Assembly (NCBI GenBank): GCA_964517975.1
Contig: CAZFDM010000126.1
Span: forward strand, 1,818 to 65,817
Direction: 5' to 3'
From: an uncultured Syntrophaceae bacterium
Lineage (GTDB): Bacteria > Desulfobacterota > BSN033 > UBA1163
DNA: 64,000 nt
A program made the translations under genes and the position numbers. This document shows positions 43,589 to 63,546 of this stretch, in pieces. The notes beneath the pieces were generated by a model, which ran no database searches, was not told where the DNA came from, and saw nothing but the letters and a program-made list of their open reading frames with translations. Every line of letters begins with the position of its first letter. Within the stretch, counting starts at the first letter, position 1.

Positions 43589-43647
43589 CATTCATTACCT
43601 TCCGGAGACTGGACCCTCACCTGGGCGGGTATCTATTAAATAATCCC

Positions 43648-46600
43648 TTATTTCTTTTTTAATAGGTCTAATAATTTTTCGATTTGATATTCGGATTGTT
43701 CCTGGGCTTTCTGCCATGTTTGAATCATGGAGTAACATCTTTCTAACTCTTTCACAACCGCATGGATAGGGCGGAGCGGATCGGAGCCGATAATCAATGC
43801 CGCCACCATCATCAGCCACCAGAGTATCTCCTCGAAGGCTTCTTTGTTGAACCACCAAATACCCTTGTAATGGTTGACGCTTAAGAATTGTCGAACATCA
43901 TCATTATTGAACAAAGATTCTAAGACCATATAGGCTTGATTTTGATCAGATGGTTTTTCCTCAAACCAATTTTGATGGCTCGTGAGCAATTTGATGATTG
44001 TCAAGGAATTCCGTGAAGCGACCTCATCAAGCCCCCAATCCCTTAGCGCAGATAGGAGGGTTTTTCCTAACCCCCATTCATCAATCCAATTGCGGCTTTT
44101 TCCTGCGAAGTCCTTTGGATGAGCCACCTTGCCAAGGGCATGAACAAATAACCAACCCAACAGCGTCGTCCAGAGAAAGGGTGAATCGGTCAGTTTGTTA
44201 TGCAAGTATTCTGCTGCTTCCTTAACCCCTTTGGGTTGGAGTCGTGGATAACGGCTGGTGATGATGGGTAGGTAAAGGATGGCTTCAAGTTTCTGCCTTA
44301 CTTCTCGGGCAATCGCCACTTCATCTTCTCCTCCTCCACTAAACTGTTTTACTTCTCTTAGGAGGTTAACGACCTTCTTTTCTACCTCTTCTATGAGGAG
44401 TTGATCGAGCTGGGCCTGTGGTTGGGTAATGCGTGCCTCGATTAAGCGACGGAAGAGGTCTTTATTGACCAGTTCCTTCAAAGCCTTCTGGAGAGGTTGC
44501 AAAAGCATTTCCTTAAATGCATCTTCAATACTCGGTACTCCACGGCCATTGAGTGTCTTTTCTATTTGAGCATAGTGATTCCATTGGTTATCCCGAACCT
44601 CTCTAAAGTCGAGAAAGACGTGATACTTGTAGGCCCCCAATTCTACATATAGTCCTTTCTCATAGAGTTCCTTGCTATTGCGAATGTACTCAAGACCACT
44701 TACATGGTCTCTGAACATGCAAAAGTAAGTGGGATCATTATGCAACCCAAGACCCTCTCCTAAATTTTTTTGAATCAATGAAGGCTCCTCCCCCCCATGC
44801 ATCTTCACCGAATAGGCCACAGAGGATCTTATCCATCCATGAGCAAAATCATATTTATTGTGATAGATGACCAAGGCTCGTTCATCTCCAAACCGATTGG
44901 AGAAGGCAAACACATTCTCATTGACAAAACCTTCAGGGGTGAAAAAATCGTAGAGCAAAAAATTTTTAACATCTGAAAAAAGGTGACGGCGCTTCATCAG
45001 CGGGAAAATCTCTCTCTCGTGGCGGTCGATCAATTCCTGGTCGGGCTGTTCATCCCATTTGGCAAAACGGTATTCCATTCCATATTTTTCTGTGAACCCT
45101 TCGATCTGACCATGGCCAAACATGGGAAGTCCAGGCAGGGTCACCATCATGGTGCAGACCCCAAAATACTTATCTCCCCTGCCGAACTGGGTCATGGCCG
45201 TTTCCTCATCCGGGTTACTCATAAAATTGACGAACCGCTTGAGGACTTCTGGATTGAATTCAAGAGTGTTCTTCATAACCGAACGATAGTTGGCGTTTTC
45301 CTCATCTTTCAACATATTCATAAAAGCACTATTATAGACACGGTGCATTCCCAAGGTCCGGACAAAAAATCCCTCTAATAGCCAAAAGGCCTCCGCTAGC
45401 AATAAGGTGTCTGGAGCTTCTTGGGCGACCCGGTCCACTACCTGACGCCAAAATTCTTCGGGCATATGGCGATTAAATTCTTCTTTCGTCATCCCAAATT
45501 CTGCTCGGGATGGAATGGCACCGCCTGTTCCTGGTTCCGGAAACCAGAGACGCTGAAAATGCCTCCTGGTCAGGGTCATCGCTGCGTCAAAACGGATGAT
45601 TGGAAATTTTCGAGCCACATGGAGAATGGTTCGAATCACCGCCTCACGGACTTCTTCTTTTAGGAAGTTCAATTGGGCCGTATCGTTCCAGGGCATTCGA
45701 GTCCCGTCGTTTCCATGATAGAGATATTTTTCACCTCCACTGTTGCGGTCCACGCGCTTAAAGACGACCGCTGCATCCGTTCGGTCATAATAATGGTCTT
45801 CAATATATATCCCTACCTCCCTATGCCATGAGAGGTCTGGTCCACTGAAACGATACGAGGGAAATGGGGGATGATCCAACGAAATAAACCAATCAGGATG
45901 TTCGATCACCCATCTCGAATCGATGCCCATATGATTTGGCACCATATCGCTTGCCAGACGAATCCCACGCCTCCAAGCCCGATCTTTTAAATTCTGAAAG
46001 GCCTCTTCACCTCCAAGGTCACTTGCGATCTGATAGTCGTAGAGAGAGTAGGCTGAGGCTACGACATCAGGATTTCCCATGATTTCCTTTATCTTCTTTG
46101 AGGCAAGACTTCTTTCCCACACCCCAATGAGCCATACTCCTGTGATTCCCCAACGGGCTAATAGATCCAGTTCTTCATCAGGGATCTGATCAAGCCTGTA
46201 GATCGAACGCTGATATTTTCGAGAAAGTTGATGAAGCCATACATAGACATTTTTTGCCATGAGAACCACCCTGGGCATCCATTCGAGATCGTGGCTAAAA
46301 CGCTCTGGCTCCCCTTCCATCCCGAGGTATTCATAGACCTCCACAGGGGGTCGTTCCCAAATGGCTACCCTCCGCCACTCTGCAATTTCTTCCTCTTTTA
46401 TAAAGTCAAGACTGCTGAGAAGTCTTAAAAGATAGGGTCCCAAAAGATAACCCCATCTCTCCCGGATATATTCTAACTGTCCTTTGAGGGAGTGGGGGAC
46501 AACTAAGGCAGGACTTCGAAGCATATCCACGAGATTCTGGTTTTCTGGGCCAAAGAAAGGTTGGGTGGCAAAAAACAGGTTAAGGGCAGCCATCATTGGC

Positions 46601-47157
46601 CGGTAGGATGTTTCTTCTTCTAAAAGGGTATCATCAAAGAGTTCGATAAAGGGAGAAAAGGCAGGATTAATATTGTCTAACCAAAGCATAAGCATCTCTT
46701 CCAATACGATTAAACGATGGGGAAGACCTTGGGTTTCTCCATCCAAGTAAGAATCCCTTTCTACTTCACCCCGATAAACTGCGACCGGTGGAAATTCATC
46801 TAAAAATTTTCTTAGTGTCTCATCCACACTGGATTTGCCCACCTTATCATAAAGCCAATTTAATGCTTGTTCAATCACAAGTGGATTTTTTTCACTACGA
46901 TACAAACCCACAATATAGTGAAGGATTTCGTCTATCAACCCCATGGCATTAATTTGCCCGGGCTTGACCGCTTGTTCGGGAAAGTTGATCAAATCCTTTT
47001 TTTCATTTATCTTCTGGGCAAACAGTCTTACCGCTCGGAAATTGGGAATAATGACATTTCCACTCAGTGTGAATAAGGCTTCGTCAAATTGGTAGAGGTC
47101 GCGCGCCTTGCGCGAGATATGGAATTCCATCTTCATAGAATTCACGCTATGCTCCAT
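43648..47157 (-). CDS. large GH13-like (alpha-amylase superfamily) glycoside hydrolase/glucanotransferase
   Basis: 1169 aa; GH13 regions I DMVPNHMG, II IRFDAAMT, III LLAEAFW in central part. Confidence 0.5.
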   Translation of the reverse strand: MEHSVNSMKMEFHISRKARDLYQFDEALFTLSGNVIIPNFRAVRLFAQKINEKKDLINFPEQAVKPGQINAMGLIDEILHYIVGLYRSEKNPLVIEQALNWLYDKVGKSSVDETLRKFLDEFPPVAVYRGEVERDSYLDGETQGLPHRLIVLEEMLMLWLDNINPAFSPFIELFDDTLLEEETSYRPMMAALNLFFATQPFFGPENQNLVDMLRSPALVVPHSLKGQLEYIRERWGYLLGPYLLRLLSSLDFIKEEEIAEWRRVAIWERPPVEVYEYLGMEGEPERFSHDLEWMPRVVLMAKNVYVWLHQLSRKYQRSIYRLDQIPDEELDLLARWGITGVWLIGVWERSLASKKIKEIMGNPDVVASAYSLYDYQIASDLGGEEAFQNLKDRAWRRGIRLASDMVPNHMGIDSRWVIEHPDWFISLDHPPFPSYRFSGPDLSWHREVGIYIEDHYYDRTDAAVVFKRVDRNSGGEKYLYHGNDGTRMPWNDTAQLNFLKEEVREAVIRTILHVARKFPIIRFDAAMTLTRRHFQRLWFPEPGTGGAIPSRAEFGMTKEEFNRHMPEEFWRQVVDRVAQEAPDTLLLAEAFWLLEGFFVRTLGMHRVYNSAFMNMLKDEENANYRSVMKNTLEFNPEVLKRFVNFMSNPDEETAMTQFGRGDKYFGVCTMMVTLPGLPMFGHGQIEGFTEKYGMEYRFAKWDEQPDQELIDRHEREIFPLMKRRHLFSDVKNFLLYDFFTPEGFVNENVFAFSNRFGDERALVIYHNKYDFAHGWIRSSVAYSVKMHGGEEPSLIQKNLGEGLGLHNDPTYFCMFRDHVSGLEYIRNSKELYEKGLYVELGAYKYHVFLDFREVRDNQWNHYAQIEKTLNGRGVPSIEDAFKEMLLQPLQKALKELVNKDLFRRLIEARITQPQAQLDQLLIEEVEKKVVNLLREVKQFSGGGEDEVAIAREVRQKLEAILYLPIITSRYPRLQPKGVKEAAEYLHNKLTDSPFLWTTLLGWLFVHALGKVAHPKDFAGKSRNWIDEWGLGKTLLSALRDWGLDEVASRNSLTIIKLLTSHQNWFEEKPSDQNQAYMVLESLFNNDDVRQFLSVNHYKGIWWFNKEAFEEILWWLMMVAALIIGSDPLRPIHAVVKELERCYSMIQTWQKAQEQSEYQIEKLLDLLKKK

Positions 47158-47298
47158 ACTCTATGCTTTTAGTCTCATAATATAGGCTATTCTCCTCCAG
47201 GACTCAAGAGAAATGATGGGCAACATCTTTGGACATTGACAGGAAGCATTGCAATGTGATATTTTGCAATAAAATGTCATGCAGGGGGGTGTTTGAAG

Positions 47299-47556
47299 AT
47301 GAAATCTCAAATTACCATCCGGTTGCCCGAGGATCTTGAGGAAGACTTGAACGAGATGAGCCGGAAGTTTCGGTTAAAACGCTCGGATATTGTTCGCATG
47401 GCCCTTGAGAAGTTTGCCAGAGAATTCAAGGGGGCCGAAACCGAAAGACCCTACGAAAAGGTTGCGGATGTGATCGGAACGATTTCAAGCGGTCTCCCTG
47501 ATCTCGGAGAGGCCCATAGAAAGTATCTTTTAAAAAGGATGAGGGGCCATGCGTAA
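47299..47556 (+). CDS. vapB: ribbon-helix-helix antitoxin (VapB/CopG-like)
   Basis: ITIRLPEDLEEDLNEMSRKF RHH N-terminus; overlaps toxin gene by 8 nt (ATGCGTAA). Confidence 0.7.
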   Translation: MKSQITIRLPEDLEEDLNEMSRKFRLKRSDIVRMALEKFAREFKGAETERPYEKVADVIGTISSGLPDLGEAHRKYLLKRMRGHA

Positions 47557-47962
47557 CCTTATCCTCGATACGGGACCTTTTGTTGCCTTGCTCGATTCGA
47601 GTGAGAGGAACCATGGGCGGTGCGTCCGTTTCCTTAAGGAGTTTCACGGCCAGATTTTTACGACGGAACCGGTATTGACGGAGGTAATGTATCTTCTCGG
47701 TCCCTCCATCAGGGACCAGAGGGCAGCGATGGAATTTATTTTAAGAGGTGGGGCTACCCTGGTTCCCCAATCGTTAAACAGTCTAAAAAGGGCAATGGCA
47801 TTCATGGAGAAATATAAAGATGTCCCAATGGATTTCGCCGATGCCACTCTTGTGACGCTTGCGGAGGAGATGGGAATCTCTGAAATATTTTCATTGGATA
47901 CAAAAGGTTTCAGCACCTATCGGATCCATGGGAAAAAACCCTTTAAAATATGGCCACAATAA
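47549..47962 (+). CDS. vapC: PIN-domain toxin
   Basis: ILDTGPFVALLD...acidic PIN residues; 137 aa. Confidence 0.8.
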   Translation: MRNLILDTGPFVALLDSSERNHGRCVRFLKEFHGQIFTTEPVLTEVMYLLGPSIRDQRAAMEFILRGGATLVPQSLNSLKRAMAFMEKYKDVPMDFADATLVTLAEEMGISEIFSLDTKGFSTYRIHGKKPFKIWPQ

Positions 47963-47965
47963 TGG

Positions 47966-49616
47966 GTGAGAGGGATGGCGACGCTCCATTTTAAAGGTAA
48001 AACTTTTGTCCAGAATCATCATTTGACGGTGAAGTATCACCAGCTCATCCCGAAGAAGGATAAGAGTTTAACGGACAAAGTTAGCCTTAACGATAACCTC
48101 ATTATCCATGGTGATAATCTCAAGGCCCTAAAGGCCCTTCTTCCCACTTATGCCGGTAAGGTGAAATGTATTTACATTGATCCACCTTATAACACCGGAA
48201 ATGAAAGATGGGTCTATAACGACAATGTCAACAGTCCGATGATGCAGGAGTGGCTTGGAAAGGTTGTTGACAGGGAAGATTTGACCCGCCACGACAAATG
48301 GCTCTGCATGATGATGCCGCGGTTGAAACTGCTGAGGGAGTTGTTGAGAGATGATGGAATAATCTTTGTGAGCATTGATGATAATGAAGTTCACCACTTA
48401 AGAATGCTGATGGATGAGGTGTTTCAAGAAGAGAATTTTAGAAATTTAATAGTTGTTCGAAGAGGTGTAAAAAGTGTTCAGGGTCAATTTGAAAGCATTG
48501 ATAAATTAGCAGAGGGTACAGAGTATGTTTTGGTTTATACGAAAAGTAAAGATTTTCGATTGAATCAATTCTTTATTGAGTTGTTTGAAACGCGACAAGG
48601 AACATGGAATAACCATTGGCGTGGAACAGATAGGCCGACTATGAGATATGAGTTGTTTGGAATTATTCCTTCAACTGGCCAGTGGCGGTGGAGCCGAGAG
48701 AGAAGCTTAAAAGCCATTGAGAATTATAAAAATTTACTTAAAGAATTTAAGAAAAATGGTTTATCAATTACTCAAAAAGAAATTGATGAATACTACTTAA
48801 AAAAAACTTGCAGAGGGAGATGATCTTGATCTATTAAGACTTTCAAGTACTGGGAAGCCAGAACATTATGTACCACCTTCTGATTACAAACTTGGAAGTA
48901 CAATGTGGACTGATTTACTTGCAAATCGCACAAAGGAAATTGTTGATATATTCGGAATGAAAGTCTTTGAGAATCCAAAATCAATTATGCTTCTCAAAAG
49001 ATTATTTGGCTTAGCGGGGGTAAATAGAGATAGTATTATCTTAGATTCTTTCGCAGGCTCTGGCACAACGGCTCACGCTGTTTTGGATTTGAATAAAGAG
49101 GATGGTGGCAATCGGAAGTTTATACTCGTTGAATGTGAGGATTATGCAGATAAAATAACTGCTGAAAGAGTAAGGCGGGTGATTAAAGGAGTTAAAAACG
49201 CAAAGGATGAGAAATTACGAGAAGGCCTTGGAGGGACATTCAGCTATTTTGAACTCGGCGACCCCATTGAGATGGAGAGCATTCTTGAAGGAGATAAATT
49301 ACCGAGTTACCTTGACCTTGCGCGATATGTTTTTTATACAGCTACTGGGGAAGAATTCGATCCTAAGAAGGTAAATGAAAAAAATAACTTCATAGGAGAA
49401 TCAAGAGAATATGAAGTCTATTTGTTTTATAAGCCTGACATTGATTATCTGAAATCGACCGCCCTGACGCTTGACAAGGCAAAAGAATTAGGTTCTTACA
49501 AAGGTAAGAGGCGTCTTGTCTTTGCCCCGAGTAAATATCTCGATACGGATTATCTTTTAGAGTATCGGATAGATTACTGCCAGTTACCTTTTGAGATTTA
49601 TAAGTTAAGGGAATAG
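47966..49616 (+). pseudogene. mod: Type III restriction-modification methyltransferase (Mod) split into two ORFs by +1 frameshift at A8 tract 48799..48806
   Basis: N-part has motif IV DPPYN; C-part (48903..49616) has motif I FAGSGTT; removing one A of the A8 run joins them in frame through LKKLAEGDDLDLLRLSSTGKPEHYVPPSDYKLGST. Confidence 0.7.
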
Positions 49617-49617
49617 A

Positions 49618-49878
49618 ATGCCAGAGATTAGTAGGTTTTTTGGTATCATCATCGCGATGTTCCATCGTGAACATTATCCACCACATTTCCACGCAAGGTA
49701 TGGAAGTTATATGGCATCGATCAGAATAGAAGATCTCGCAGTAGTTGAGGGGTATCTTCCTCCAAGAGCATTGGGGCTTGTTATGGAATGGGCTTATATG
49801 CATAAAGAGGAGCTTCTAAATGATTGGAAATTAGCAATGGAAAGAAAACCTCTTCTCCCGATCGAGCCGTTAAAGTAA
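49618..49878 (+). CDS. DUF4160-family protein
   Basis: 86 aa, GIIIAMFHREHYPPHFHARYG pattern. Confidence 0.55.
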   Translation: MPEISRFFGIIIAMFHREHYPPHFHARYGSYMASIRIEDLAVVEGYLPPRALGLVMEWAYMHKEELLNDWKLAMERKPLLPIEPLK

Positions 49879-49890
49879 GGAGGTGGCTTT

Positions 49891-50199
49891 ATGTACTACG
49901 ATGTGATTGAAGCAAGGTATATCGAAGGCTATAAACTGGAACTTACTTTCGAGAATGGGAAAAAAGGGGTCGTCGATTTTAAAGATTATGTAAAATTAGG
50001 AGGGGTTTTCAGCCGTTTTTCTGATCTTGAGTATTTCAAACAATTTTATATCAATAAAGAGTTAGGTGTTTTATGCTGGCCCGATGAGGTGGATATTGCT
50101 CCGGAGACACTCTATAGCGAGGCAACCGGCGAGCCATTGCCTTCATGGATGATTCCCAAAATAGATGAAGAGAAACCAGAGAAGGCAGTAGTCCTATAA
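49891..50199 (+). CDS. DUF2442-family protein
   Basis: 102 aa, YKLELTFENGKKGVVDF pattern; stop 3 nt before res start. Confidence 0.55.
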   Translation: MYYDVIEARYIEGYKLELTFENGKKGVVDFKDYVKLGGVFSRFSDLEYFKQFYINKELGVLCWPDEVDIAPETLYSEATGEPLPSWMIPKIDEEKPEKAVVL

Positions 50200-50201
50200 T
50201 T

Positions 50202-52718
50202 ATGGAGCTTAAAGAATATCAGAAAAAGGCATTGGAACAGGTCAAGCGTTATTTGGAAGCGCTTGCTGACTTCAAAGCTAAAAATGAGAGGCTGATAAAA
50301 CAGGACCCTGAGATTTCAATCAACTTCCCGCAAAAAGCGTGGGAGAAGGCAGTAGGGGCAAATTATTATTCAAGAAAGAATGGGTTAGGTGAGGATCTGC
50401 CCAATTTTTACCTCAAAATCCCTACAGGTGGAGGGAAGACCCTCCTTGCCTGCCATGCCATTGACCTGATAAATAGAACTTATTTAAAAAAACAGACAGG
50501 TATTGTCCTTTGGATTGTTCCGACCACACAAATTTATCGACAAACCCTAATAAATCTTAAAAACCGGGAACACCCTTATCGTCAGGTATTGGATATCTCG
50601 AGTGGTGGAAGAACCGTTATCTTAGAAAAGACAGATCGATTTACCCGATTGGATGTTGAAGAGAATCTTGTGGTGATGCTCTTGATGTTACCCTCTGCCA
50701 GCAGACAGAACAAAGAGGTGCTAAAAGTTTTTAAAGACAGCGGAGGGTTTGGTGAATTTTTCCCAGCCGAAGATGACAGAGTGGGAAATGAGAGACTTTT
50801 GAAAGCGGTTCCTAATCTGGATTGCTTTGGAGATGAGAAAGTCTTTTGGGGCCGGGTTGTTAAAACATCTCTCGGTAACACCCTTAGATTATTGAAGCCA
50901 ATCATTATTATTGACGAAGGCCATAAGGCATATAGTGAAATTGCCCAGAAGACCATCAGAGATTTTAATCCCTCAATTATAGTGGAGTTATCAGCCACCC
51001 CACCTAAAAACAGCAATATATTAGTCAACATCAGTGGACAGGAACTCAACCGGGAAGAGATGATTAAGCTCGATTTACATATTGCTAACAAAGCAAGTAT
51101 TGACTGGAAGAATGCCATGCTTGCCGCTCTGGAGAAGAGGAATTTTCTTGAGAAGAAAGCCAAGGAGTATGAAGCCAATACAGGGGAATATATTCGACCC
51201 ATCTGTCTCATTCAGGTCGAAAGGACGGGGAAGGAGCAAAGGGGCACAAAATTTATCCATGCCGAGGATGTAAAGGAATATCTGATCAAACAATGCGGGA
51301 TTTCAGAGGAAGAGATAGCCATAAAAAGCAGCGAGAAAGACGATATTGAAGGGATTGATCTTTTAAGTAAAGACTGCCCTATCCGCTTTATCATTACTAA
51401 ACAAGCATTGCAGGAGGGTTGGGATTGTGCCTTCGCTTATCTCCTTACTATCCTTACCAATCCGAGCTCACAGCTCAGCATCACTCAGCTCGTTGGAAGA
51501 ATTTTAAGGCAACCCAAAGCGAGAAAAACGAAGGTGAAAGAGCTGGACGAAAGTTATGTATTTTGTTTTAGGCAGAAGGCAAAAGCACTTTTAGAAAATG
51601 TAAAGAGGGGATTCGAGACTGAAGGGCTTGGAGATCTGGCTGGAAGGGTCTTAATGGAGGAGGGAGATAAAGAGACTATAGAAGCAACCAAAGAAAGGAC
51701 AGTGGGTTATAGAGAGAGATTTAAGAAATTTGAAGGGAAGATTTACCTTCCCAAATTTGTAATTCAGGAAAAGGATGGCTGGCGTGATGTCAATTATGAG
51801 ATGGACATTCTAAGCAGGATTGATTGGAACCAGATATCTATAGAGGCATTAAAAGATATTTCGCTTGGAAAGATAAGGCCCGAAGAGCATGAGATCGTTG
51901 TTGGATTAAGCGAAGATATAAAGGAGTTAATTAAAGAGAAAGGCAGGGTGTCTAAGGAAGGTGGTTTTGAAATCAACAAGGTCTTTATGACCAGACAGAT
52001 TTTGGATGTGGTTCCTAATCCATGGGTGGCCTATGAAATATCCAAAAAGGTGATTGACCTATTTTTGATGGAGAATGATGAAGAAACAGTTGCTAACAGC
52101 CTCGTTTTCATCATTGAGGAGTTGAAAAAACATCTGATCAAAGAACGGGACAGATTAGCAGAGAAGGTGTTTAAAGACCTCATAGAGAAAAAGGTTTTAT
52201 GGTTCTTTCTCCTTTCTGATAAAGGTGGTTATAAATTACCATCCAGCATAAAAGTGAAAAATACCTCCAAAGCACTTATAAGATCAGACCATACACCAAT
52301 CCAGAGAAGTCTGTTTGATTTTGTTCCAGAAGAGGAATTTAATGAACTCGAAAAATCGGTTGCCCTTTATCTTGACGAACAGGAAAGGCTTTTATGGTGG
52401 TATCGGAATTTGTCGAGGCAGGATTATTATGTTCAGGGATGGAAGAAAAATAGGGTGTATCCAGATTTCATCTTCACCGATATGGATCATAAAAAACAAG
52501 ACGATTATAGTAAGGTCTATGTCATTGAAACAAAGGGTTTGCATCTCAAAAACGAGGATACAGAGTATAAGAAGGATGTGTTTTCTTTTTGCAATAAATT
52601 GGGGAAGCAGAAGGATTGGCGAGATTTGAATTTGGAATTTAAAGAAAAGAGAGTGGAATTTCAGGTCGTTTTTGAAGATGAGTGGAAGAGGCGGATCAAC
52701 CAAATATTTGAAACCTAA
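50202..52718 (+). CDS. res: Type III restriction endonuclease Res subunit (SF2 helicase-nuclease)
   Basis: Walker A PTGGGKT, motif II IDEGHKA, SATP, QEGWDC, QLVGRILRQP; 838 aa. Confidence 0.85.
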   Translation: MELKEYQKKALEQVKRYLEALADFKAKNERLIKQDPEISINFPQKAWEKAVGANYYSRKNGLGEDLPNFYLKIPTGGGKTLLACHAIDLINRTYLKKQTGIVLWIVPTTQIYRQTLINLKNREHPYRQVLDISSGGRTVILEKTDRFTRLDVEENLVVMLLMLPSASRQNKEVLKVFKDSGGFGEFFPAEDDRVGNERLLKAVPNLDCFGDEKVFWGRVVKTSLGNTLRLLKPIIIIDEGHKAYSEIAQKTIRDFNPSIIVELSATPPKNSNILVNISGQELNREEMIKLDLHIANKASIDWKNAMLAALEKRNFLEKKAKEYEANTGEYIRPICLIQVERTGKEQRGTKFIHAEDVKEYLIKQCGISEEEIAIKSSEKDDIEGIDLLSKDCPIRFIITKQALQEGWDCAFAYLLTILTNPSSQLSITQLVGRILRQPKARKTKVKELDESYVFCFRQKAKALLENVKRGFETEGLGDLAGRVLMEEGDKETIEATKERTVGYRERFKKFEGKIYLPKFVIQEKDGWRDVNYEMDILSRIDWNQISIEALKDISLGKIRPEEHEIVVGLSEDIKELIKEKGRVSKEGGFEINKVFMTRQILDVVPNPWVAYEISKKVIDLFLMENDEETVANSLVFIIEELKKHLIKERDRLAEKVFKDLIEKKVLWFFLLSDKGGYKLPSSIKVKNTSKALIRSDHTPIQRSLFDFVPEEEFNELEKSVALYLDEQERLLWWYRNLSRQDYYVQGWKKNRVYPDFIFTDMDHKKQDDYSKVYVIETKGLHLKNEDTEYKKDVFSFCNKLGKQKDWRDLNLEFKEKRVEFQVVFEDEWKRRINQIFET

Positions 52719-52769
52719 ACCATTATCATCATATCTAACACCTTTGTTGTGTTCATTTAATAAAGAAGA

Positions 52770-53567
52770 ATGATCAAGATCGGCACAAGTGGGTTTTCTT
52801 TTCTGGATTGGAAGGGGCCGGTTTATCCTGTAGGGTTACGGGAAAGGGATATGCTCTCTTTTTACGAGAAAGAATTGGGATTTAATGCCCTGGAGGTTAA
52901 TTTCACTTACTATGCCCTTCCTTCCCAGAAGAGTTTTTTAGCGATGTCGAAAAAAACTACCAAGGACTTTGAGTTTGTTGTAAAGTCTTTTAAAGGGATG
53001 ACCCATGAGATTCGTGATAAGGGAACAGGGGAGATCCTGGATAATCAGGAGGTATTTAAAAAGTTTAAATATAGCCTCATCCCTTTACTGGAAGAAGGAA
53101 AACTGGCCTGTGTGCTGGCCCAATTCCCTTATGGATTCTTCCCAAACAAGTCAAACCTTGACTATCTTAAGCGGTTTCGGGAAGAGATGCTCGATATTCC
53201 TTTAGTCTTTGAGTTTCGGAATCAGATATGGCTCAAAGACCAGACCTTCCAATTTTTAGAAAGGAATGGGATTGGGTTTTGTGTGGTCGATGAACCGAAA
53301 TTGCCTAAGTTGATGCCCTATCTTCCAAGGGCCACTTCCGAGATTGGGTACTTTCGATTTCATGGGCGAAACCCGAACTGGTTTAACGCACCCACTTCAA
53401 TAAGGTATGATTATTTATATAGTGAAAAGGAATTAAAGGAATTCATCCCAGATATCAAAGATATTTCAAAAAGGACGGCAAAGACTCTGGTCTTTTTTAA
53501 TAATTGCCATGCAGGATCTGCAGCCAAAAATGCGGCCCAGATGGCGAGGATGCTCATAAACGAATAG
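52770..53567 (+). CDS. DUF72 (YecE-like) protein
   Basis: IGTSGFSFLDW N-terminal signature. Confidence 0.7.
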   Translation: MIKIGTSGFSFLDWKGPVYPVGLRERDMLSFYEKELGFNALEVNFTYYALPSQKSFLAMSKKTTKDFEFVVKSFKGMTHEIRDKGTGEILDNQEVFKKFKYSLIPLLEEGKLACVLAQFPYGFFPNKSNLDYLKRFREEMLDIPLVFEFRNQIWLKDQTFQFLERNGIGFCVVDEPKLPKLMPYLPRATSEIGYFRFHGRNPNWFNAPTSIRYDYLYSEKELKEFIPDIKDISKRTAKTLVFFNNCHAGSAAKNAAQMARMLINE

Positions 53568-53645
53568 GATTCAAGGGGCCTGGGGTTCGAATAAATTTTT
53601 TAATTCTTGAACCCCAACTCCTTGACTCCTTAACAAGGAGGTAAC

Positions 53646-54023
53646 GTGGTCAAGATCGATTTTAAGAAAGGGAAAGGGCTTGTCCCTGTCATCATTCAGG
53701 ATGCTACGACCCATGAAGTCCTCATGATGGGGTATATAAACCAAGAGGCTTGGAGAAAGACACTGAAGGAAAAGAAGGCAACCTTCTGGTCAAGGTCTCG
53801 GAAGAAACTCTGGTTAAAAGGAGAGACTTCAGGCCATGTTCAGGAGGTAAAAGAGATCTATCTTGATTGCGATGGAGATGCCCTTCTTTTTAAGGTAGAC
53901 CAGATCGGAGGGGCTGCTTGCCATACGGGATACCGGAGTTGTTTCCATTACAAGTATGAGAAGGGGAGATGGAAAATATCAGGAGAAAAGATATTTAATC
54001 CGAAGGAGGTATATCAATCGTGA
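53646..54023 (+). CDS. hisI: phosphoribosyl-AMP cyclohydrolase
   Basis: 125 aa, LVPVIIQD..., [15 protein letters not shown] motifs. Confidence 0.85.
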
Positions 54024-54892
54024 AGATTCTTAAAGTTGGAATTCCAAAAGGAAGTCTGGAAAATGCCACGATCGAACTTTTTCGAAAGTCGGGATGGAAG
54101 ATTTCTGTCAGTGGGCGAAGTTATTTCCCTTCGGTGGATGACGACGAGATGCGCTGTACGTTGGTTCGAGCCCAGGAGATGTCACGATTTGTAGAGATGG
54201 GGACATTAGATGCAGGGCTCACCGGGAAGGATTGGGTTTTGGAGAATGGTTCGGATGTTATCGTTGTTCAAGACCTGATTTATTCCAAAACCAGCCCTGT
54301 TCCTGCCCGATGGGTAGTGGTGGTGGCAGAGGATTCGCCCATTCGGACTATAAACGATTTAGAAGGGAAGAAGATCTTTACCGAACTGGTCAATTTCACT
54401 CGAAGATATTTTGCCGAGCGGAATATTCAGGTGGATGTGGAGTTTTCATGGGGGGCGACCGAGGGAAAGGTGATTGAGGGGTTGTGTGATGCGATTGTAG
54501 AAGTGACAGAGACCGGAAGCACCTTGAAGGCCAATGGTCTTCGGATTGTTGAAGAATTGATGCAGACCAATACTCAACTGATTGCCAATCGAGAGTCTTA
54601 CCAAGATCCATGGAAAAGGGAAAAGATTGAACAAATCTCTCTCCTTCTTCAGGGAGCCCTTCGAGCAGAAGGGATGGTTGGCCTTAAAATGAATGTTTCA
54701 GCCAACGACCTCCAGAGCGTCATCGAAATCCTACCGAGCATCACCGCACCTACCATCTCGAACCTTTTTCAAAGTGACTGGTTTGCCATAGAGGTGATGG
54801 TTTCTGAAAAGGTGGTCAGAGAGTTGATTCCCCAGCTCCTCAAACGAGGAGCAGTGGGGATCATTGAATACCCGCTCAATAAAGTCATTTGA
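54020..54892 (+). CDS. hisG: ATP phosphoribosyltransferase, long form
   Basis: [11 protein letters not shown]-terminus, 290 aa with C-terminal regulatory domain; 4-nt overlap with hisI. Confidence 0.85.
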
Positions 54893-54922
54893 GGCTAAGG
54901 GTTAGGCTGAAATAAATTTAAT

Positions 54923-56258
54923 TTAATCTTGACATTTTTGAAGAAGTCCAACCACTTCCATGTGATAGGTCTGTGGAAACATATCGATAAGTTCCAGCCT
55001 CTCGGTGGAGTATCCTCTTTCGGTCAGAAGTCGAAGATCCCGAGCAAAGGTGCTGGGTTCACAGGAGACATAAATCACCTTTTGGGGTTTTAGCCTGATC
55101 ATCTGTTCCAAAATATCCCGGCATCCCTTTCTTGGAGGATCGACTACAATGAGGGTGGGGTTTTCGTTTTCCAAACTCTTCAAAACCTCTTCAACCCTCC
55201 CCTGAATGAATTTACAATTTCTGATTCCATTTCTTTCTGCATTAAACCGTGCGTCCTGAATCGCTCTCCGATTCTCCTCAATCCCAAAGACTTCCTTTGC
55301 TCCTATCGCTGTTAGGGGAAGGGTTAGATTTCCAATTCCACAATAGAGGTCAAGTGCTCTCTCCACCTTATGTCTTCCTGCCCATTGGAGAATGGTTTGA
55401 ATTAACCTTCGATTCTGCATTGGATTGACCTGAGAAAAACTCCCAGGAGAGATTCGAAGAGTAAGCGTTTTATCCCCTTTTCCTGGATTCATAGGGATTT
55501 TAAATTTCAGGGTTGGATCACCTAAATGATTTAATCCTCCTTTTTGACCTATCACAATTCCTTTGAGGATGGGATGGGTTTTTAAAATTTCTTCAAAGAG
55601 GCTTTCTGTTTTTTTTCTTAGGAGAGAGATAAGGAAGGAGGATGACCCCTTGGTTCTCATCTGGAGAGACATTGATTTCTATTTCTTCTGTTTGAATAAA
55701 GGAAAGTAACCTTTCTCTAATTATTGACAAGAGTTGGTTGATTAAGGGATGGGCAATCGGACAGGTCTGGATATCTACCACCCGATGTGACTTCTCTTGA
55801 TAATAACCCAGCCTTTTCCCTTTTGCTTTCAGCTGAACTCTCACCCTATATCCATAGGGTTGAGGAGAGTGGATCACGGATGGGGGAGGGATTTCCTTAA
55901 GCCTTCCAATTCTTTTTAAGAGATCTTCTAAAATCTCCTTCTTGATCTTACATTGTCTCGAATAATCAATATGTTGCCAATGACAACCTCCACAACTCCC
56001 AAACCTTGTGCAGAGAGGGTTGGTTCTCCAAGGAGATGGATTGAGGATCTGAATTAACCTCCCCTTCGAGTAATTCTTCTTCTCCTCAATCACCTCGATC
56101 CATGCCCGATCCCCAGTCATGGTATATGGGATAAATACCACCTTCCCATGGATGCGAGCCACTCCATAGCCTTTAAAACCAACGGATTCGATAAGGACCT
56201 CGAATTTTTTCATCCTATTCAAAAATAGCATGAGGGGGGGATGAATCAATGGAGTCAT
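54923..56258 (-). pseudogene. rlmD: 23S rRNA (uracil-5)-methyltransferase RlmD/RumA split by frameshift at homopolymer (T8 on + strand 55609..55616)
   Basis: N-part 55593..56258 has TRAM domain and C..C..C Fe-S motif CTRFGSCGGCHWQH; C-part 54923..55672 has FSQVN, DLYCGIGN, VDPPRKG, YVSCEP; ORFs overlap 80 nt; deleting one base of the run restores ...LSPKKKTESLFEEIL... Confidence 0.7.
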
Positions 56259-56333
56259 AGAGGGAAAAGGAGAAATTTTACTTGAAAGGGATGGAAGAGA
56301 ATGAGTATGATAAAAAAATAGAATTGGTTCCTT

Positions 56334-57026
56334 ATGAAATCAACAGTAGAATTGGAAAGATTGCAAAGAAGAGTGGTTCGTTGTCGAAAGTGTCCCAGGC
56401 TGGTCACCTATCTTCAGGAGATTGAAAGCCATAAACCCAAGAGATTTCGGGAATGGACCTATTGGTCAAGACCCCTCCCCAGTTTTGGGGACCCATATGG
56501 TCGTGTTTTGATTGTTGGATTGGCCCCAGCCGCCCACGGAGGTAACCGAACCGGTCGAATGTTTACAGGTGATCGGAGCGGAGAATGGTTGTTCAATGCA
56601 CTCTACCAATTTGGTTTTGCTAATCAATCCAATAGTCTTCAACTGGATGACGGATTCAAGTTGAACGATTGTTATATTACAGCCACCATTCGATGTGCAC
56701 CCCCTCAGAATAGACCCTCCCCAGAGGAAATCGAAAACTGTCGGCCTTATTTTATAGAGGAACTAGACCTTCTTAGAAATGTCCAGATTTTCATTCCTTT
56801 GGGTCAAATTGCCTTTAATCAAACCTTAAAGGGGCTACGATTGAAAGGACTCAAAGTTCCACCTCTATCTTTTGGGCATGGGAGAGTCTATCCTCTTCCA
56901 AATGGGAAGACAATCGTCACCTCCTATCACCCAAGCCAACAAAATACCCAAACAGGTAGACTCACGAGGCCGATGTTTTATAAGGTATTTGAAATAGTTG
57001 GAGATATCCTAAAAGGCTATAACTAA
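56334..57026 (+). CDS. uracil-DNA glycosylase, family 4/5 (UDGb-like)
   Basis: N-terminal Cys cluster (CRKCPRL), GLAPAAHGGNRTGRMFTGD motif, C-terminal HPS. Confidence 0.7.
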   Translation: MKSTVELERLQRRVVRCRKCPRLVTYLQEIESHKPKRFREWTYWSRPLPSFGDPYGRVLIVGLAPAAHGGNRTGRMFTGDRSGEWLFNALYQFGFANQSNSLQLDDGFKLNDCYITATIRCAPPQNRPSPEEIENCRPYFIEELDLLRNVQIFIPLGQIAFNQTLKGLRLKGLKVPPLSFGHGRVYPLPNGKTIVTSYHPSQQNTQTGRLTRPMFYKVFEIVGDILKGYN

Positions 57027-57085
57027 TTGGTAGGGAAAGGAATTGATGGATAAAAAGACAATAATTTTAGTAGTTTAAAATTTTT

Positions 57086-57114
57086 TTGACATTCATTATT
57101 TTTTAATATAAAAT
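57086..57114 (+). promoter_or_regulatory. sigma70-type promoter TTGACA-N17-TAAAAT upstream of Fur-family gene
   Basis: ttgaca 57086..57091, taaaat 57109..57114; AT-rich spacer with partial dyad could hold a Fur/PerR box. Confidence 0.35.
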
Positions 57115-57182
57115 ATTTGTTAATAACCAATTTCTTAAAGAAAGCAAAATCTTTGTTGAATCATGAAAAACGAATAAATGAA

Positions 57183-57602
57183 ATGATTTCTAAGTTGAAG
57201 GAGAAACGGCTTCGCCTAACCCCACAGCGACTTGCAGTTGTAAAGATTCTGGCTACAAGTCAGGACCATCTCAGTGTTGAGGGGATATACCAAAGAGTAA
57301 AAGCAGATTTTCCCGTTACCAGTTTAGCTACCATTTATAAAATCATAAATGTACTTAAAAACGTCGGTGAACTTATGGAACTTGGTTTTGTTGATGATTG
57401 TAACCGATATGATGGTGCCAGACCTTTTCCTCATCCCCATTTGATCTGTATTCGGTGCAGGAAAATCCTTGACCCCGATATCTCTACTTTAACCGAACTC
57501 CCTAAGGAGTTAGAGGAGAAGACAGGGTTTCAAATCATTAACCATCGTCTTGATTTCTTTGGTATTTGTCCCGAATGCCAAAGAGAAAAACCTATTTTAT
57601 GA
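57183..57602 (+). CDS. Fur-family transcriptional regulator (PerR-like)
   Basis: LRLTPQRLAVVKIL HTH, HPHLICIRC...CPEC metal sites; start at ATG 57183 (track ORF starts at TTG 57117 inside promoter). Confidence 0.75.
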   Translation: MISKLKEKRLRLTPQRLAVVKILATSQDHLSVEGIYQRVKADFPVTSLATIYKIINVLKNVGELMELGFVDDCNRYDGARPFPHPHLICIRCRKILDPDISTLTELPKELEEKTGFQIINHRLDFFGICPECQREKPIL

Positions 57603-57615
57603 AAAGGAGGAAGGA

Positions 57616-58116
57616 ATGATGGCTAAGACAGAACAATTTTTAAAGGAGGCCTTTGCAGGAGAGTCTCAGGCGAACAGAAGGTATTTAGCCTTTGCAGCCA
57701 AGGCAGAACAGGAAGGCTATCCTCAGGTCGCTCGTCTCTTTAGGGCTGCTGCAGAAGCAGAAACCATCCACGCCCATAATCATTTAAGGGCACTCAAAGG
57801 GATTCGAAGTACGAAGGAGAATCTGGAAGAGGCCATTGCTGGAGAGACTCACGAATTTAAGAAGATGTATCCAGAGATGATTGAAGCCGCCAAACAGGAA
57901 GGAAACAAAGAGGCAGAACGAACCTTTCATTATGCCAATGAAGTCGAGAAGGTCCATGCCAACCTCTATCAAACTCTCCTCAACAACTTGGGAAAAACTC
58001 AGGAGGCCTTCCCTTATTATGTATGCCCTATTTGTGGTTACACAGCCGAGCGGGAGGCTCCCGAAACCTGTCCGGTATGTGGCGTAAAAAAAGATAAGTT
58101 TAAAAAAATTGATTAA
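57616..58116 (+). CDS. rbr: rubrerythrin
   Basis: ferritin-like E..H motifs plus C-terminal rubredoxin CPICG...CPVCG; ATG 57616 after GGAGG. Confidence 0.85.
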   Translation: MMAKTEQFLKEAFAGESQANRRYLAFAAKAEQEGYPQVARLFRAAAEAETIHAHNHLRALKGIRSTKENLEEAIAGETHEFKKMYPEMIEAAKQEGNKEAERTFHYANEVEKVHANLYQTLLNNLGKTQEAFPYYVCPICGYTAEREAPETCPVCGVKKDKFKKID

Positions 58117-58151
58117 GAATTCCTTTTTTGAATCTTCCCTCTCGAAAGGAG

Positions 58152-58322
58152 ATGATCATTATGGCCGAACATGTGATTAAACTGACAGACCAAGAAGTTC
58201 AAAAAATCCAGGCTATCATTTTAGATCGAGATAAAGAGGAGGCCTTTCGATTTCTCGTCGATGTCATCAAAGAGAAATTGAAAGCACCGACCAGCCGTCC
58301 CTGTGGTCCGACCCCTGTATAA
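58152..58322 (+). CDS. small hypothetical protein
   Basis: AAGGAG RBS then ATG 58152; 56 aa; between rbr and tpx. Confidence 0.3.
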   Translation: MIIMAEHVIKLTDQEVQKIQAIILDRDKEEAFRFLVDVIKEKLKAPTSRPCGPTPV

Positions 58323-58346
58323 TACCATAAAAAAAGGAACCCTCTG

Positions 58347-58871
58347 ATGAAAGAACGAACAGGACGGATTACCTTTAAAGGAAATCCTCTAACTTTAATT
58401 GGAAATGAAGTAAAAGTCGGGGATGAGGCCCCTGACTTTATTGCTTTGGACCCTGATCTTAACCCTATCTCATTTTCGACCTATCGGGGGAAGACCTGTC
58501 TTCTCTCTTCTGTCCCCTCCCTGGATACCCCAGTCTGTAATATGGAGACTCGAAGGTTCAATGAAGAAGCAAGCCGTTTAGGTCCAGACCTCACTATTCT
58601 TACCATCAGTATGGACCTTCCCTTTGCACAAAAAAGATGGTGTGCTGCCACAGGAGTAGATCGCATTCAAACTCTTTCCGACCATCGGGATGCCTCCTTT
58701 GGAACTTCCTATGGTGTTTTGATAAAGGAGTTAAGGCTTTTAGCCCGAGCTCTCTTTTTGGTGGATAAAAAAGGGGTCGTTCAATATGTCCAGATCGTTA
58801 AAGAGATAACCCATGAACCTGATTATGAATCCGTCTTAGGAGCCTTAAAAAATTTTGGGGGAGGAACATGA
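58347..58871 (+). CDS. tpx: thiol peroxidase (atypical 2-Cys peroxiredoxin)
   Basis: SLDTPVC peroxidatic motif, 174 aa. Confidence 0.85.
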   Translation: MKERTGRITFKGNPLTLIGNEVKVGDEAPDFIALDPDLNPISFSTYRGKTCLLSSVPSLDTPVCNMETRRFNEEASRLGPDLTILTISMDLPFAQKRWCAATGVDRIQTLSDHRDASFGTSYGVLIKELRLLARALFLVDKKGVVQYVQIVKEITHEPDYESVLGALKNFGGGT

Positions 58872-59431
58872 AAAAGATCATCTTTTTGGTTCTTTTGGTC
58901 TTAACTCTTCCATTTTTAGGGTTCCCATCGAATAAGCCTCCGGAAAAGGGTGAGTCCTTTCCATCCATCCAACTCCCTATCCCAAAGAGTCCATCTGAAA
59001 AAGCCTATCTTGGTCTTTCAGGAGAAGGCCTATTTAAAATCCCTCAAATTAAAGCAAAGGTGCTCATCATTGAGATTTTTAGTATGTATTGTCCCCATTG
59101 TCAGAAGGATGCCCCTGGAGTGAATGAGCTTTATGATCGGATTGAAAAGAACCCAGACTTCAAAGGGAAGATTAAACTCATCGGCATTGGCGTAGGAAAT
59201 ACCCCTTTCGAAGTAGAAATGTTTAAGAAGACCTATCAGATTCCCTTTCCCCTCTTTCCAGATCGAGACTATCTCCTTCATAAAGCCTTTGGCGAAGTGA
59301 GAACGCCTTACTTTATGGTAGTCAAAATCAAAGAGGAAGGGGCTTTAGAGATCGTTCACACCCAATTGGGAGGATATCCTGGAGCCGAAGCCTTTTTGGA
59401 ATTGGTTCAAAAAGTATCGGGATTAAAATAG
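58868..59431 (+). CDS. TlpA/ResA-like periplasmic thiol-disulfide oxidoreductase
   Basis: signal peptide, thioredoxin-fold CPHC motif. Confidence 0.7.
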   Translation: MKKIIFLVLLVLTLPFLGFPSNKPPEKGESFPSIQLPIPKSPSEKAYLGLSGEGLFKIPQIKAKVLIIEIFSMYCPHCQKDAPGVNELYDRIEKNPDFKGKIKLIGIGVGNTPFEVEMFKKTYQIPFPLFPDRDYLLHKAFGEVRTPYFMVVKIKEEGALEIVHTQLGGYPGAEAFLELVQKVSGLK

Positions 59432-59442
59432 GAGCCTTTAAG

Positions 59443-63345: not shown

Positions 63346-63546
63346 GATCCACTCCTCTCATTGAAGTATCAAAATTTTTTCGTTTTAATTTTCTACCTTA
63401 GAATTAGTGAAATGTCAACCTTGGGGGAAATTCTTTTGTTATAGGATAATGGGTGAAAACCTTTTCAGGTTTCAATTTTTCATTGCCTTCTTCGTCTTTT
63501 CAGATTAATATAAAACCATCTCTGTAAAGACGTAGAGGAGGAGAAT

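What the first reader, a model, noticed from the sequence alone, without database searches (positions are those of the whole stretch)
47966..49616. Type III mod gene interrupted at an A8 homopolymer: phase-variable switch or homopolymer sequencing error
Seen in sequence: the Mod N-terminal part (DPPYN motif IV) ends at 48823, shortly after an A8 run (48799..48806). The C-terminal part (FAGSGTT motif I) restarts at 48903 in the +1 frame. Deleting one A from the run yields a continuous, sensible peptide across the gap (…EYYLKK-LAEGDDLDLLRLSSTGKPEHYVPPSDYKLGSTMWTDLL…). Established knowledge: Type III mod genes are classic phase-variable loci (phasevarions) switched by simple-sequence repeats, including homopolymers. 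With mod off, the Res subunit, which depends on Mod for DNA recognition, would be inactive as a restriction enzyme. Caveat from the sequence itself: rlmD at 55609..55616 has the identical lesion, one extra base in an 8-mer. Two independent 8-mer +1 events is also the signature of systematic homopolymer error in long-read or 454-type assemblies.
Basis: partly seen in the sequence, partly recalled or inferred. Interest (0 to 1): 0.55.

Follow-up and report, generated by a model that had tools for sequence, protein, structure and literature searches.

The report
Real frameshift allele of Type III mod
The one-base frameshift that splits this DNA-methylase gene is real, not a sequencing error: the broken (A8) and intact (A7) versions both occur in wild hot-spring relatives, but it looks like an ordinary inherited knock-out at a slippery A-run, not a proven on/off switch.

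Summary
An A8 run at 48799-48806 splits a Type III mod gene into 282-aa and 237-aa pieces, and removing one A restores a 546-aa Mod.

It is not an assembly artefact. The same A8, with no gaps, is in independent metagenome contigs from two other samples that differ by 19-23 SNPs. One of them is an Illumina HiSeq/metaSPAdes assembly from the Cone Pool hot-spring mat. Three further samples carry the same cassette with A7 and the exact intact 546-aa product.

The rlmD T8 lesion is also real and appears in four assemblies.

Evidence for a switch is weak:
- Only A7 and A8 are seen.
- The two states separate completely with linked SNPs, so one A7-to-A8 slip explains everything.
- More distant relatives have an interrupted AAATAAA at this site.
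- The run is shorter than the 9 bases the field uses as its criterion for a homopolymer.
- A sister mod allele knocked out at a different poly-A run also carries a nonsense codon, so it is decaying.

Best reading: a recent loss-of-function allele, still segregating in the species, made by replication slippage in a horizontally acquired 4.8-kb Type III R-M cassette of an uncultured Thermodesulfobacteriota bacterium. It silences methylation and restriction together. Low-rate reversibility or leaky rescue is not excluded.

The parts
47293..47556 (+). Ribbon-helix-helix antitoxin-like gene (vapB-like). It is chromosomal and lies just left of the cassette.
   Evidence: PF12651 RHH_3, E 1e-5. Present in the sister lineage L097, which lacks the cassette.
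47549..47962 (+). PIN-domain toxin-like gene (vapC-like). Its stop codon marks the left edge of the cassette.
   Evidence: PF01850, E 1e-10. Alignment to L097 ends at 47962.
47963..52768 (.). 4806-bp Type III R-M cassette (mod, DUF4160, DUF2442, res). It is present or absent as a precise block relative to the sister lineage.
   Evidence: In L097 the PIN and DUF72 genes are 10 nt apart, and the window aligns to it at 43603-47962 and 52769-64000 only. The cassette GC of 39.7% is about the lowest of all 4.8-kb windows (mean 43.9%, sd 1.5). The same cassette sits in another genomic context in L002.
47975..48823 (+). mod N-terminal fragment, 282 aa from ATG 47975 (GTG 47966 is an alternative start). 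It holds motif IV (DPPYN) and most of the target-recognition region, and ends in 4 out-of-frame residues plus a stop.
   Evidence: Gene callers on independent contigs give the same 282-aa product.
48799..48806 (+). The A8 homopolymer that carries the frameshift. A7 is the in-frame, ancestral state within the species, and AAATAAA is the state in more distant relatives.
48807..49616 (+). mod C-terminal part in the +1 frame, with motif I (FAGSGTT). The first ATG is at 48903, giving a 237-aa ORF.
   Evidence: The 32 residues between the tract and that ATG (LAEGDDLDLLRLSSTGKPEHYVPPSDYKLGST) are conserved among homologues with the same TRD.
49618..49878 (+). DUF4160 gene, resembling the DhiT toxin, nested between mod and res.
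   Evidence: PF13711, E 7e-21. NCBIfam toxin_DhiT scores 84.8 bits, below its cut-off of 100. Conserved in L001-L003, L098 and L109.
49891..50199 (+). DUF2442 gene, resembling the DhiA antitoxin, nested between mod and res.
   Evidence: PF10387, E 1e-17. NCBIfam antitoxin DhiA scores 37 bits, far below its cut-off of 200.
50202..52718 (+). res, the Type III restriction subunit, 838 aa and intact.
   Evidence: PF04851 ResIII. PADLOC REase_III PDLC03653, E 2e-193, over residues 40-832. Weak match to EcoP15I Res, 4zcf_C.
50740..50740 (+). The only SNP inside the cassette between A8 and A7 carriers. It changes Res residue 180 from S (ancestral, in A8 carriers) to N (derived, in A7 carriers).
54923..56258 (-). 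rlmD (23S rRNA m5U1939 methyltransferase) split by a second real A7-to-A8 frameshift: T8 on the + strand at 55609-55616.

Best explanation
The window comes from an uncultured hot-spring Thermodesulfobacteriota bacterium. It carries a horizontally acquired 4.8-kb Type III restriction-modification cassette: mod, a DUF4160/DUF2442 pair, then res. A lysine-lysine A7 run had recently arisen in the target-recognition region of mod, from AAATAAA. In one sub-lineage of the species, replication slippage added one A to that run. The resulting A8 allele ends Mod after 278 native residues and separates motif IV from motif I. Type III Res depends on Mod for DNA recognition, so methylation and restriction are lost together, with no risk of the cell cutting its own DNA. 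The allele is inherited by descent and coexists in the species with the intact A7 allele. It is a segregating null allele, a pseudogene in the making, produced at a mutational hot spot. It is not a demonstrated contingency switch. Shown here: the lesion, that it is real, the A7/A8 polymorphism, its linkage to SNPs, and the status of the cassette as a block insertion. Inferred: slippage as the mechanism, the loss of both activities, and the absence of frequent reversion.
For: 1. The lesion is real. A8 is present, gap-free, in L004 (Logan SRR10519663, 23 SNPs), L005 (IMG 3300022548, 19 SNPs) and L006 (IMG 3300010308, identical). IMG 3300022548 is an Illumina HiSeq 2x150 metaSPAdes assembly (PMC7490370).
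2. The intact allele exists. L014, L015 and L016 carry A7 and the exact 546-aa product at 99.6-99.95% nucleotide identity in the same chromosomal context.
3. One event is enough. The cassette SNP at 50740 and all 10 right-flank SNPs shared by the informative contigs (52804-53198) separate A8 carriers from A7 carriers completely. Outgroups show that each branch has a single derived change in the cassette: +A in mod on one, S180N in res on the other.
4. The tract is young and unprotected. L001-L003 (85-89% nucleotide identity) have AAATAAA, and the extra A is the only indel in 4.7 kb against L001 and L003.
5. Products of A6, A9 and A10 tracts are absent from a collection of about 15 billion proteins.
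6. The truncation removes a conserved block.
7. Decay is common in this cassette family. L098 has a -1 slip at a different poly-A run (A8 to A7 relative to the intact L109) plus a TCA-to-TGA nonsense codon. L002 has a 619-bp deletion in res.
8. The same lineage fixed an identical type of lesion in rlmD, a gene with no reason to phase-vary.
Against: Only consensus contigs were available, so minority A7 or A9 sub-populations within a sample could not be seen. There are only five informative haplotypes, and perfect association would arise by chance about 1 time in 10. Neither mod nor res carries a second lesion in the A8 allele, so decay has not started and reversion remains possible. Two independent poly-A knock-outs in two mod alleles could also be read as recurrent switching. 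Loss of methylation and restriction is inferred from what is known of EcoP15I-type enzymes and was not measured.
Confidence: 0.7

Rival explanations
1. Genuine phase variation. The A7/A8 run is a reversible contingency tract that switches the Type III system, and possibly a methylation-dependent regulon, ON and OFF within populations.
For: Both ON (A7) and OFF (A8) lengths occur among near-identical strains, and L016 differs from the window by nothing but the indel over 2 kb. res and the rest of mod are intact in the OFF allele. A second mod allele at the same locus is knocked out at another poly-A run. Type III mod genes are the classic phase-variable methylases (PMC5909438).
Against: The tract is 7-8 bases, below the field's criterion of 9 or more for mononucleotides. 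It is poly-A, whereas the mononucleotide tracts read in that survey are G runs. Relatives have an interrupted AAATAAA. Only two lengths are seen. The state separates completely with linked SNPs, with no homoplasy. All three A8 populations have A8 as consensus. The parallel case L098 has gone on to acquire a nonsense codon. rlmD shows the same lesion with no conceivable benefit from switching.
Confidence: 0.13
2. The A8 allele is still partly expressed. RNA-polymerase slippage (loss of one A or gain of two) or a +1 ribosomal slip of tRNA-Lys on AAA-AAA-A restores the frame in a fraction of products, giving low-level full-length Mod. The same would apply to rlmD.
For: Re-pairing is perfect for a +1 slip on the A run, and the corrected product equals the wild-type protein. 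Transcriptional slippage is productive on A9, and in some bacteria on A8 (PMC1088944). Two A8 frameshifts persist in this lineage, and rlmD shows no excess dN/dS (0.19, neighbours 0.03-0.34).
Against: There is no conservation of the frameshifted configuration beyond one young clade. Relatives and sister strains are in frame. No stimulatory element was sought or seen. A8 is at the weak end for slippage. The low dN/dS is equally explained by the lesions being recent.
Confidence: 0.12
3. Assembly or sequencing artefact: a systematic homopolymer over-call in the MAG, with a true sequence of A7.
Against: A8 in mod recurs in three other assemblies and T8 in rlmD recurs in four. One of these data sets is documented as Illumina. 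The contig name of A7-carrying L014 (k141_) suggests, by inference, a MEGAHIT short-read assembly. These contigs include strains that differ by SNPs. Other assemblies resolve A7 at the same site, and the A7/A8 state tracks linked SNPs.
Confidence: 0.03

Closest known systems
EcoP15I-type Type III restriction-modification systems (Mod2Res complexes; PDB 4ZCF)
   Same: Mod is a beta-class N6-adenine methyltransferase with motif IV (DPPY), then a variable TRD, then motif I (FxGxG). Res is an SF2-helicase-type subunit encoded downstream. PADLOC MTase_III and REase_III match at full length, and phmmer hits EcoP15I Mod at 2e-38 and H. pylori-type Mod 6k0w at 1e-44. TRD swapping between alleles at one locus matches known mod allele families.
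   Different: Mod (546 aa) and Res (838 aa) are shorter than in EcoP15I (644 and 970 aa). Two small TA-like genes sit between mod and res. Sequence similarity of Res to EcoP15I Res is marginal (E 3e-5).
Phase-variable Type III mod genes (phasevarions): modA in Haemophilus and Neisseria, modH in H. pylori (G-tract)
   Same: A frameshift at a simple repeat inside the mod ORF turns the methylase OFF. ON and OFF lengths both occur among strains.
   Different: The tract is A7/A8, short and made of A, and it does not meet the criterion of 9 or more bases (PMC5909438). It is not conserved in relatives. Only two lengths are seen, each tied to one haplotype. The host is a free-living hot-spring anaerobe, and no switching or regulon was shown.
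Homopolymer frameshift pseudogenes rescued by polymerase infidelity (transcriptional slippage at A/T runs; Baranov et al. 2005, PMC1088944)
   Same: A +1 lesion in an A run inside an otherwise intact ORF, and two such lesions in one 64-kb stretch.
   Different: Runs there are typically 9 or more bases, and the frameshifted state is conserved across taxa. Here the state is young and polymorphic, and no expression data exist.

Membership tests
Type III R-M system | Mod is a beta-class N6-adenine methyltransferase with the order motif IV (DPPY/F), TRD, motif I (FxGxG) | tested here: met
   DPPYN lies upstream and FAGSGTT downstream of the tract. PF01555. PADLOC MTase_III full length, E 5e-121. 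PDB Mod chains 6k0w and 4zcf.
Type III R-M system | Res subunit with helicase-like ATPase motifs, encoded in the same operon downstream of mod | tested here: met
   PF04851 ResIII plus DEAD. PADLOC REase_III PDLC03653, E 2e-193, residues 40-832. Same strand, 586 bp downstream, with two small genes in between. The C-terminal nuclease motif was not examined separately.
Type III R-M system | Res activity depends on Mod for DNA recognition | not testable with these tools
   Established for EcoP1I and EcoP15I. Assumed here.
Phase-variable mod (phasevarion) | A simple-sequence repeat in the ORF long enough for high-rate slippage (9 or more for mononucleotides in the REBASE survey) | tested here: not met
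   The tract is A8 here and A7 in the ON allele. The criterion is quoted from PMC5909438.
Phase-variable mod (phasevarion) | Tract length varies among and within strains, independently of genetic background | tested here: inconclusive
   A7 occurs in 3 samples and A8 in 3 samples plus the window. No other lengths are seen. The state is completely linked to flanking SNPs among 5 informative haplotypes. Heterogeneity within a sample cannot be seen in consensus contigs.
Phase-variable mod (phasevarion) | The repeat is maintained in related alleles or species | tested here: not met
   L001, L002 and L003 have AAATAAA, encoding N-K. The residues at this site vary across homologues.
Phase-variable mod (phasevarion) | Reversible ON/OFF switching with methylome and expression changes | not testable with these tools
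   Needs reads, cultures or methylomes.
Pseudogene (decaying gene) | The reading frame is disrupted relative to intact orthologues, with loss of conserved sequence | tested here: met
Pseudogene (decaying gene) | Further lesions or relaxed constraint have accumulated | tested here: not met
   A8 carriers show no further change in mod or res. The lesion is too recent to judge. The parallel allele L098 does have a second lesion.
Programmed transcriptional slippage or recoding site | The frameshifted configuration is conserved across diverged relatives | tested here: not met
   Sister strains (A7) and relatives (AAATAAA) are in frame. rlmD is in frame in L097.

The most novel reading that the evidence does not exclude
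Short poly-A runs (7-8 bases) in the target-recognition region act as low-rate, reversible ON/OFF switches of a Type III R-M cassette in a free-living, uncultured hot-spring Thermodesulfobacteriota bacterium. They would arise repeatedly in different TRD alleles (the window allele and the L098/L109 allele), extending phasevarion-like behaviour beyond host-adapted pathogens and below the accepted tract-length threshold. Leakiness from transcriptional slippage might also contribute.
Probability: 0.12. Interest if true: 0.5.

Novelty: new member of a known kind. Interest (0 to 1): 0.27.

Why it matters
The lesion is biology, not homopolymer error, and it shows how public metagenome contigs can answer that without raw reads. 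Biologically it is a snapshot of ordinary R-M turnover. A recently acquired Type III cassette is being lost through the safest route, knocking out mod, which disarms res as well, at the most mutable site in the gene. Intact and null alleles coexist in natural populations. It would matter more only if reads or methylomes showed frequent reversible switching. That would place phasevarion-type regulation in an environmental thermophile with a tract shorter than current survey criteria accept.

Tried and rejected
1. Scanning metagenome contigs for the 21-mer GATGAATACTACTTAAAAAAA, to obtain a tract-length distribution, returned only three unrelated chance matches (L011-L013). That collection does not hold the relevant contigs.
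2. Scanning genome contigs for the 27-mer found nothing, so the species representative either lacks this allele or is absent.
3. The genome-contig scan with the Lon protein gave only 83% identity to a Thermodesulfobacteriota MAG, so taxonomy is resolved to phylum only. L017 had no rlmD nearby.
4. Exact look-ups of hypothetical A6, A9 and A10 mod products and A6, A7, A9 and A10 rlmD products all came back absent. This is informative for mod. For rlmD it only shows that no allele with an identical sequence and an intact frame has been catalogued.
5. dN/dS of rlmD against L097 was computed to date the lesion. At 0.19 it lies within the range of neighbouring genes, so it shows only that the lesion is recent or tolerated.
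6. A functional split methylase made of two separate polypeptides was considered and rejected. The 32 residues lost between the frameshift and the next ATG include a conserved block (DLLRL..GKPEHYVPP).
7. A -1 programmed ribosomal frameshift on A-AAA-AAA was considered and rejected, because the -1 frame runs into a stop after 13 codons (A9-equivalent frame).
8. The overlapping ORF pair 57117-57602 / 57550-58116 (Fur and rubrerythrin) is not a frameshift. They are separate genes whose ORFs are artificially extended upstream. The pair 25457-25810 / 25680-26339 was not resolved.

Full report
**1. Observation**

The window has an A8 run at 48799-48806.
- The upstream frame runs from ATG 47975 (an alternative GTG lies at 47966). 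It encodes DPPYN and stops at 48823.
- The +1 frame is open from the run onward, contains FAGSGTT, has its first ATG at 48903 and stops at 49616.
- Removing one A gives a 546-aa protein. It matches PF01555 and PADLOC MTase_III PDLC03644 over 1-542 of 542 positions, E 5e-121. It also matches the Mod chains of PDB 6k0w and EcoP15I 4zcf.
- It aligns over 100% of its length with 546-aa homologues at 94-95% identity.
- Downstream lie a DUF4160 gene, a DUF2442 gene and an intact 838-aa Res (PF04851; PADLOC REase_III, E 2e-193).

This includes the second lesion in rlmD: T8 at 55609-55616, which is A8 on the gene strand and has one base too many.

**2. Artefact or biology?**

Exact-protein look-ups located independent public contigs.

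The split mod with A8 occurs, without any gap relative to the window, in three contigs:

| Contig | Source | Difference from window |
|---|---|---|
| L004 | Logan assembly of SRR10519663 | 23 SNPs in 8.6 kb |
| L005 | IMG 3300022548 | 19 SNPs in 8.4 kb |
| L006 | IMG 3300010308 | identical; possibly the window's source data |

IMG 3300022548 is the Cone Pool hot-spring mat co-assembly from Little Hot Creek, California. It was sequenced on Illumina HiSeq-2500 at 2x150 and assembled with metaSPAdes (PMC7490370). That platform does not systematically over--mers.

Three other samples carry the same cassette with A7 and the exact 546-aa product:

| Contig | Source | Identity to window |
|---|---|---|
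| L014 | ENA ERZ27245602; same amylase-RHH-PIN context | 99.6% |
| L015 | IMG 3300025794 | 99.8% |
| L016 | Logan SRR5216256 | no mismatch in 2 kb other than the indel |

The rlmD T8 recurs gap-free in four assemblies, L007-L010. Both lesions are real features of a natural population.

**3. Organism and locus**

The window matches an 82.5-kb NCBI contig. Its Lon protease is 83% identical to that of a Thermodesulfobacteriota MAG. The organism is therefore an uncultured member of that phylum, found in hot-spring mats.

A sister lineage, L097 (IMG 3300031749), is 94-95.6% identical in nucleotide sequence. It has the order amylase, RHH, PIN, DUF72, hisI, hisG, rlmD, with only 10 nt between PIN and DUF72. 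Window 47963-52768 (4806 bp) is thus a precise block insertion or deletion relative to it.

The cassette is about the most AT-rich 4.8-kb stretch of the window, at 39.7% GC against a mean of 43.9% (sd 1.5). It occurs in a different genomic context in L002. Between strains it carries a single SNP in 4.8 kb, while both flanks carry many. This points to recent horizontal acquisition or spread.

**4. Switch or single mutation?**

- In the SNP table, the cassette SNP 50740 and all 10 right-flank SNPs covered by both A7 contigs (52804-53198) separate the A8 carriers (window/L006, L004, L005) from the A7 carriers (L014, L015) without exception.
- SNP 50740 changes Res S180 to N. Outgroup Res proteins have S. 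The A7 branch therefore has one derived change (N180) and the A8 branch one derived change (+A). This is a simple two-branch genealogy with no homoplasy.
- More distant cassettes (L001-L003, 85-89% nucleotide identity) read AAATAAA (Asn-Lys). The extra A is the only indel in a 4.7-kb alignment with L001 and L003. The history is AAATAAA to A7 (T to A) to A8 (slip).
- Hypothetical products of A6, A9 and A10 are absent from a collection of about 15 billion proteins.
- The field's survey criterion for a potentially phase-variable mod gene is a mononucleotide tract of 9 or more bases (PMC5909438). A7/A8 does not meet it.

Statistical power is limited. With five informative haplotypes, perfect linkage would arise by chance about 1 time in 10, and consensus contigs hide minority lengths.

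**5. Context from sister alleles**

At the same chromosomal site, other MAGs carry mod alleles with different target-recognition domains (L098/L109 and L110). This is the TRD-swapping pattern typical of Type III mod genes.
- L109 has an intact 541-aa Mod with an in-frame A8 (E-R-K-K-K-F).
- L098 is 99.2% identical across mod but has A7 there, which is a -1 frameshift. It also has a TCA-to-TGA nonsense codon 60 nt downstream, while res stays intact.
- L002 has an intact mod, but res is broken by a 619-bp deletion.

This cassette family is therefore inactivated often, and poly-A runs are the preferred breaking points. In the one case old enough to judge, the broken mod kept decaying and did not switch back.

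**6. Mechanism**

Shown:
- A one-base expansion of an A run truncates Mod after residue 278 and separates motif IV from motif I.
- The 32 residues between the frameshift and the next ATG include a block conserved in homologues with the same TRD (DLLRL..GKPEHYVPP), so two separate fragments are unlikely to be active.

Inferred:
- The expansion arose by replication slippage.
- Type III Res needs Mod for recognition (established for EcoP1I and EcoP15I), so the allele abolishes methylation and restriction together and carries no cost from self-restriction. That makes mod a safe target for loss.
- Reversion from A8 to A7 is possible in principle.
- Leaky correction is mechanistically possible, because re-pairing on the run is perfect and the corrected product equals the wild type. 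It could occur by RNA-polymerase slippage or by a +1 slip of tRNA-Lys. A8 is at the weak end of what is known to slip (PMC1088944), and nothing here supports conservation of the frameshifted state.
- rlmD shows dN/dS of 0.19 against L097, within the range of its neighbours (0.03-0.34). That is consistent with a recent lesion.

**7. Verdict**

| Reading | Probability |
|---|---|
| Segregating null allele from a single slip in a recently acquired cassette | about 0.7 |
| Genuine phase variation | about 0.13 |
| Leaky rescue by slippage | about 0.12 |
| Sequencing or assembly artefact | about 0.03 |

This is a new instance of a well-known kind of event and is of modest interest. Read-level tract-length counts and methylomes would settle it.

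Noticed in passing
window 49618-50199; L099 7694-10505; L101 7650-7656: The gap between mod and res behaves as a variable cargo slot. Here and in L001-L003, L098 and L109 it holds a DUF4160/DUF2442 pair (resembling the DhiT/DhiA toxin-antitoxin pair, below NCBIfam cut-offs). In an 82%-identical Mod relative it holds HTH+M78 peptidase, PIN/DUF4411, a 101-aa ORF and DUF1828. In Bacillus relatives mod and res are 5 nt apart.
   Followed up: partly
window 54923-56258 (T8 at 55609-55616): rlmD (23S rRNA m5U1939 methyltransferase) carries a real A7-to-A8 frameshift, present in four independent assemblies. The sister lineage L097 has an intact 435-aa gene with AAT-AAAAAAA at the site. No intact allele of identical sequence is catalogued. 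The organism seems to live without RlmD or relies on slippage.
   Followed up: partly
window 47963-52768 vs L097: The whole R-M cassette is a precise 4806-bp block, present or absent between the PIN stop codon and the DUF72 start codon. No integrase or transposase is present, GC is about the lowest in the window, and there is almost no diversity inside it although both flanks are SNP-rich.
   Followed up: yes
window 48429-49034; L098 and L109 (mod); L110: At least three different target-recognition-domain alleles of mod occupy the same chromosomal locus in related MAGs, with conserved N- and C-terminal parts. This is TRD shuffling as in the modA/modH allele families.
   Followed up: partly
L098 about 461-530 vs L109: A second, independent poly-A knock-out of mod (in-frame A8 reduced to A7) is accompanied by a TCA-to-TGA nonsense codon, with res still intact at 838 aa.
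   Followed up: yes
L002 5873-7769 (window equivalent 50801, 50815-51433): In another relative mod is intact, but res is broken by a 619-bp deletion plus a 1-nt deletion.
   Followed up: partly
window 44683-46604 (alpha-amylase-family gene, 43648-47157, - strand): SNPs among near-identical strains form mosaic blocks: L004, L005, L014 and the window share different segments. This suggests homologous recombination between strains just left of the cassette.
   Followed up: no
window 24169-24177: A C9 run, the longest homopolymer in the window, lies in frame (Pro-Pro-Pro) in the C-terminal extension of a thiolase-like gene (22902-24374). By length it is a better candidate for a slippage-prone tract than the A8. 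Its variation between strains was not examined.
   Followed up: no
window 58809 and 58846 (3' end of AhpC/redoxin gene 58347-58871): Two 2-nt indels relative to L097 lie 37 nt apart near the 3' end. They look like a compensated frameshift that rewrites the C-terminus (174 aa against 160 aa).
   Followed up: no
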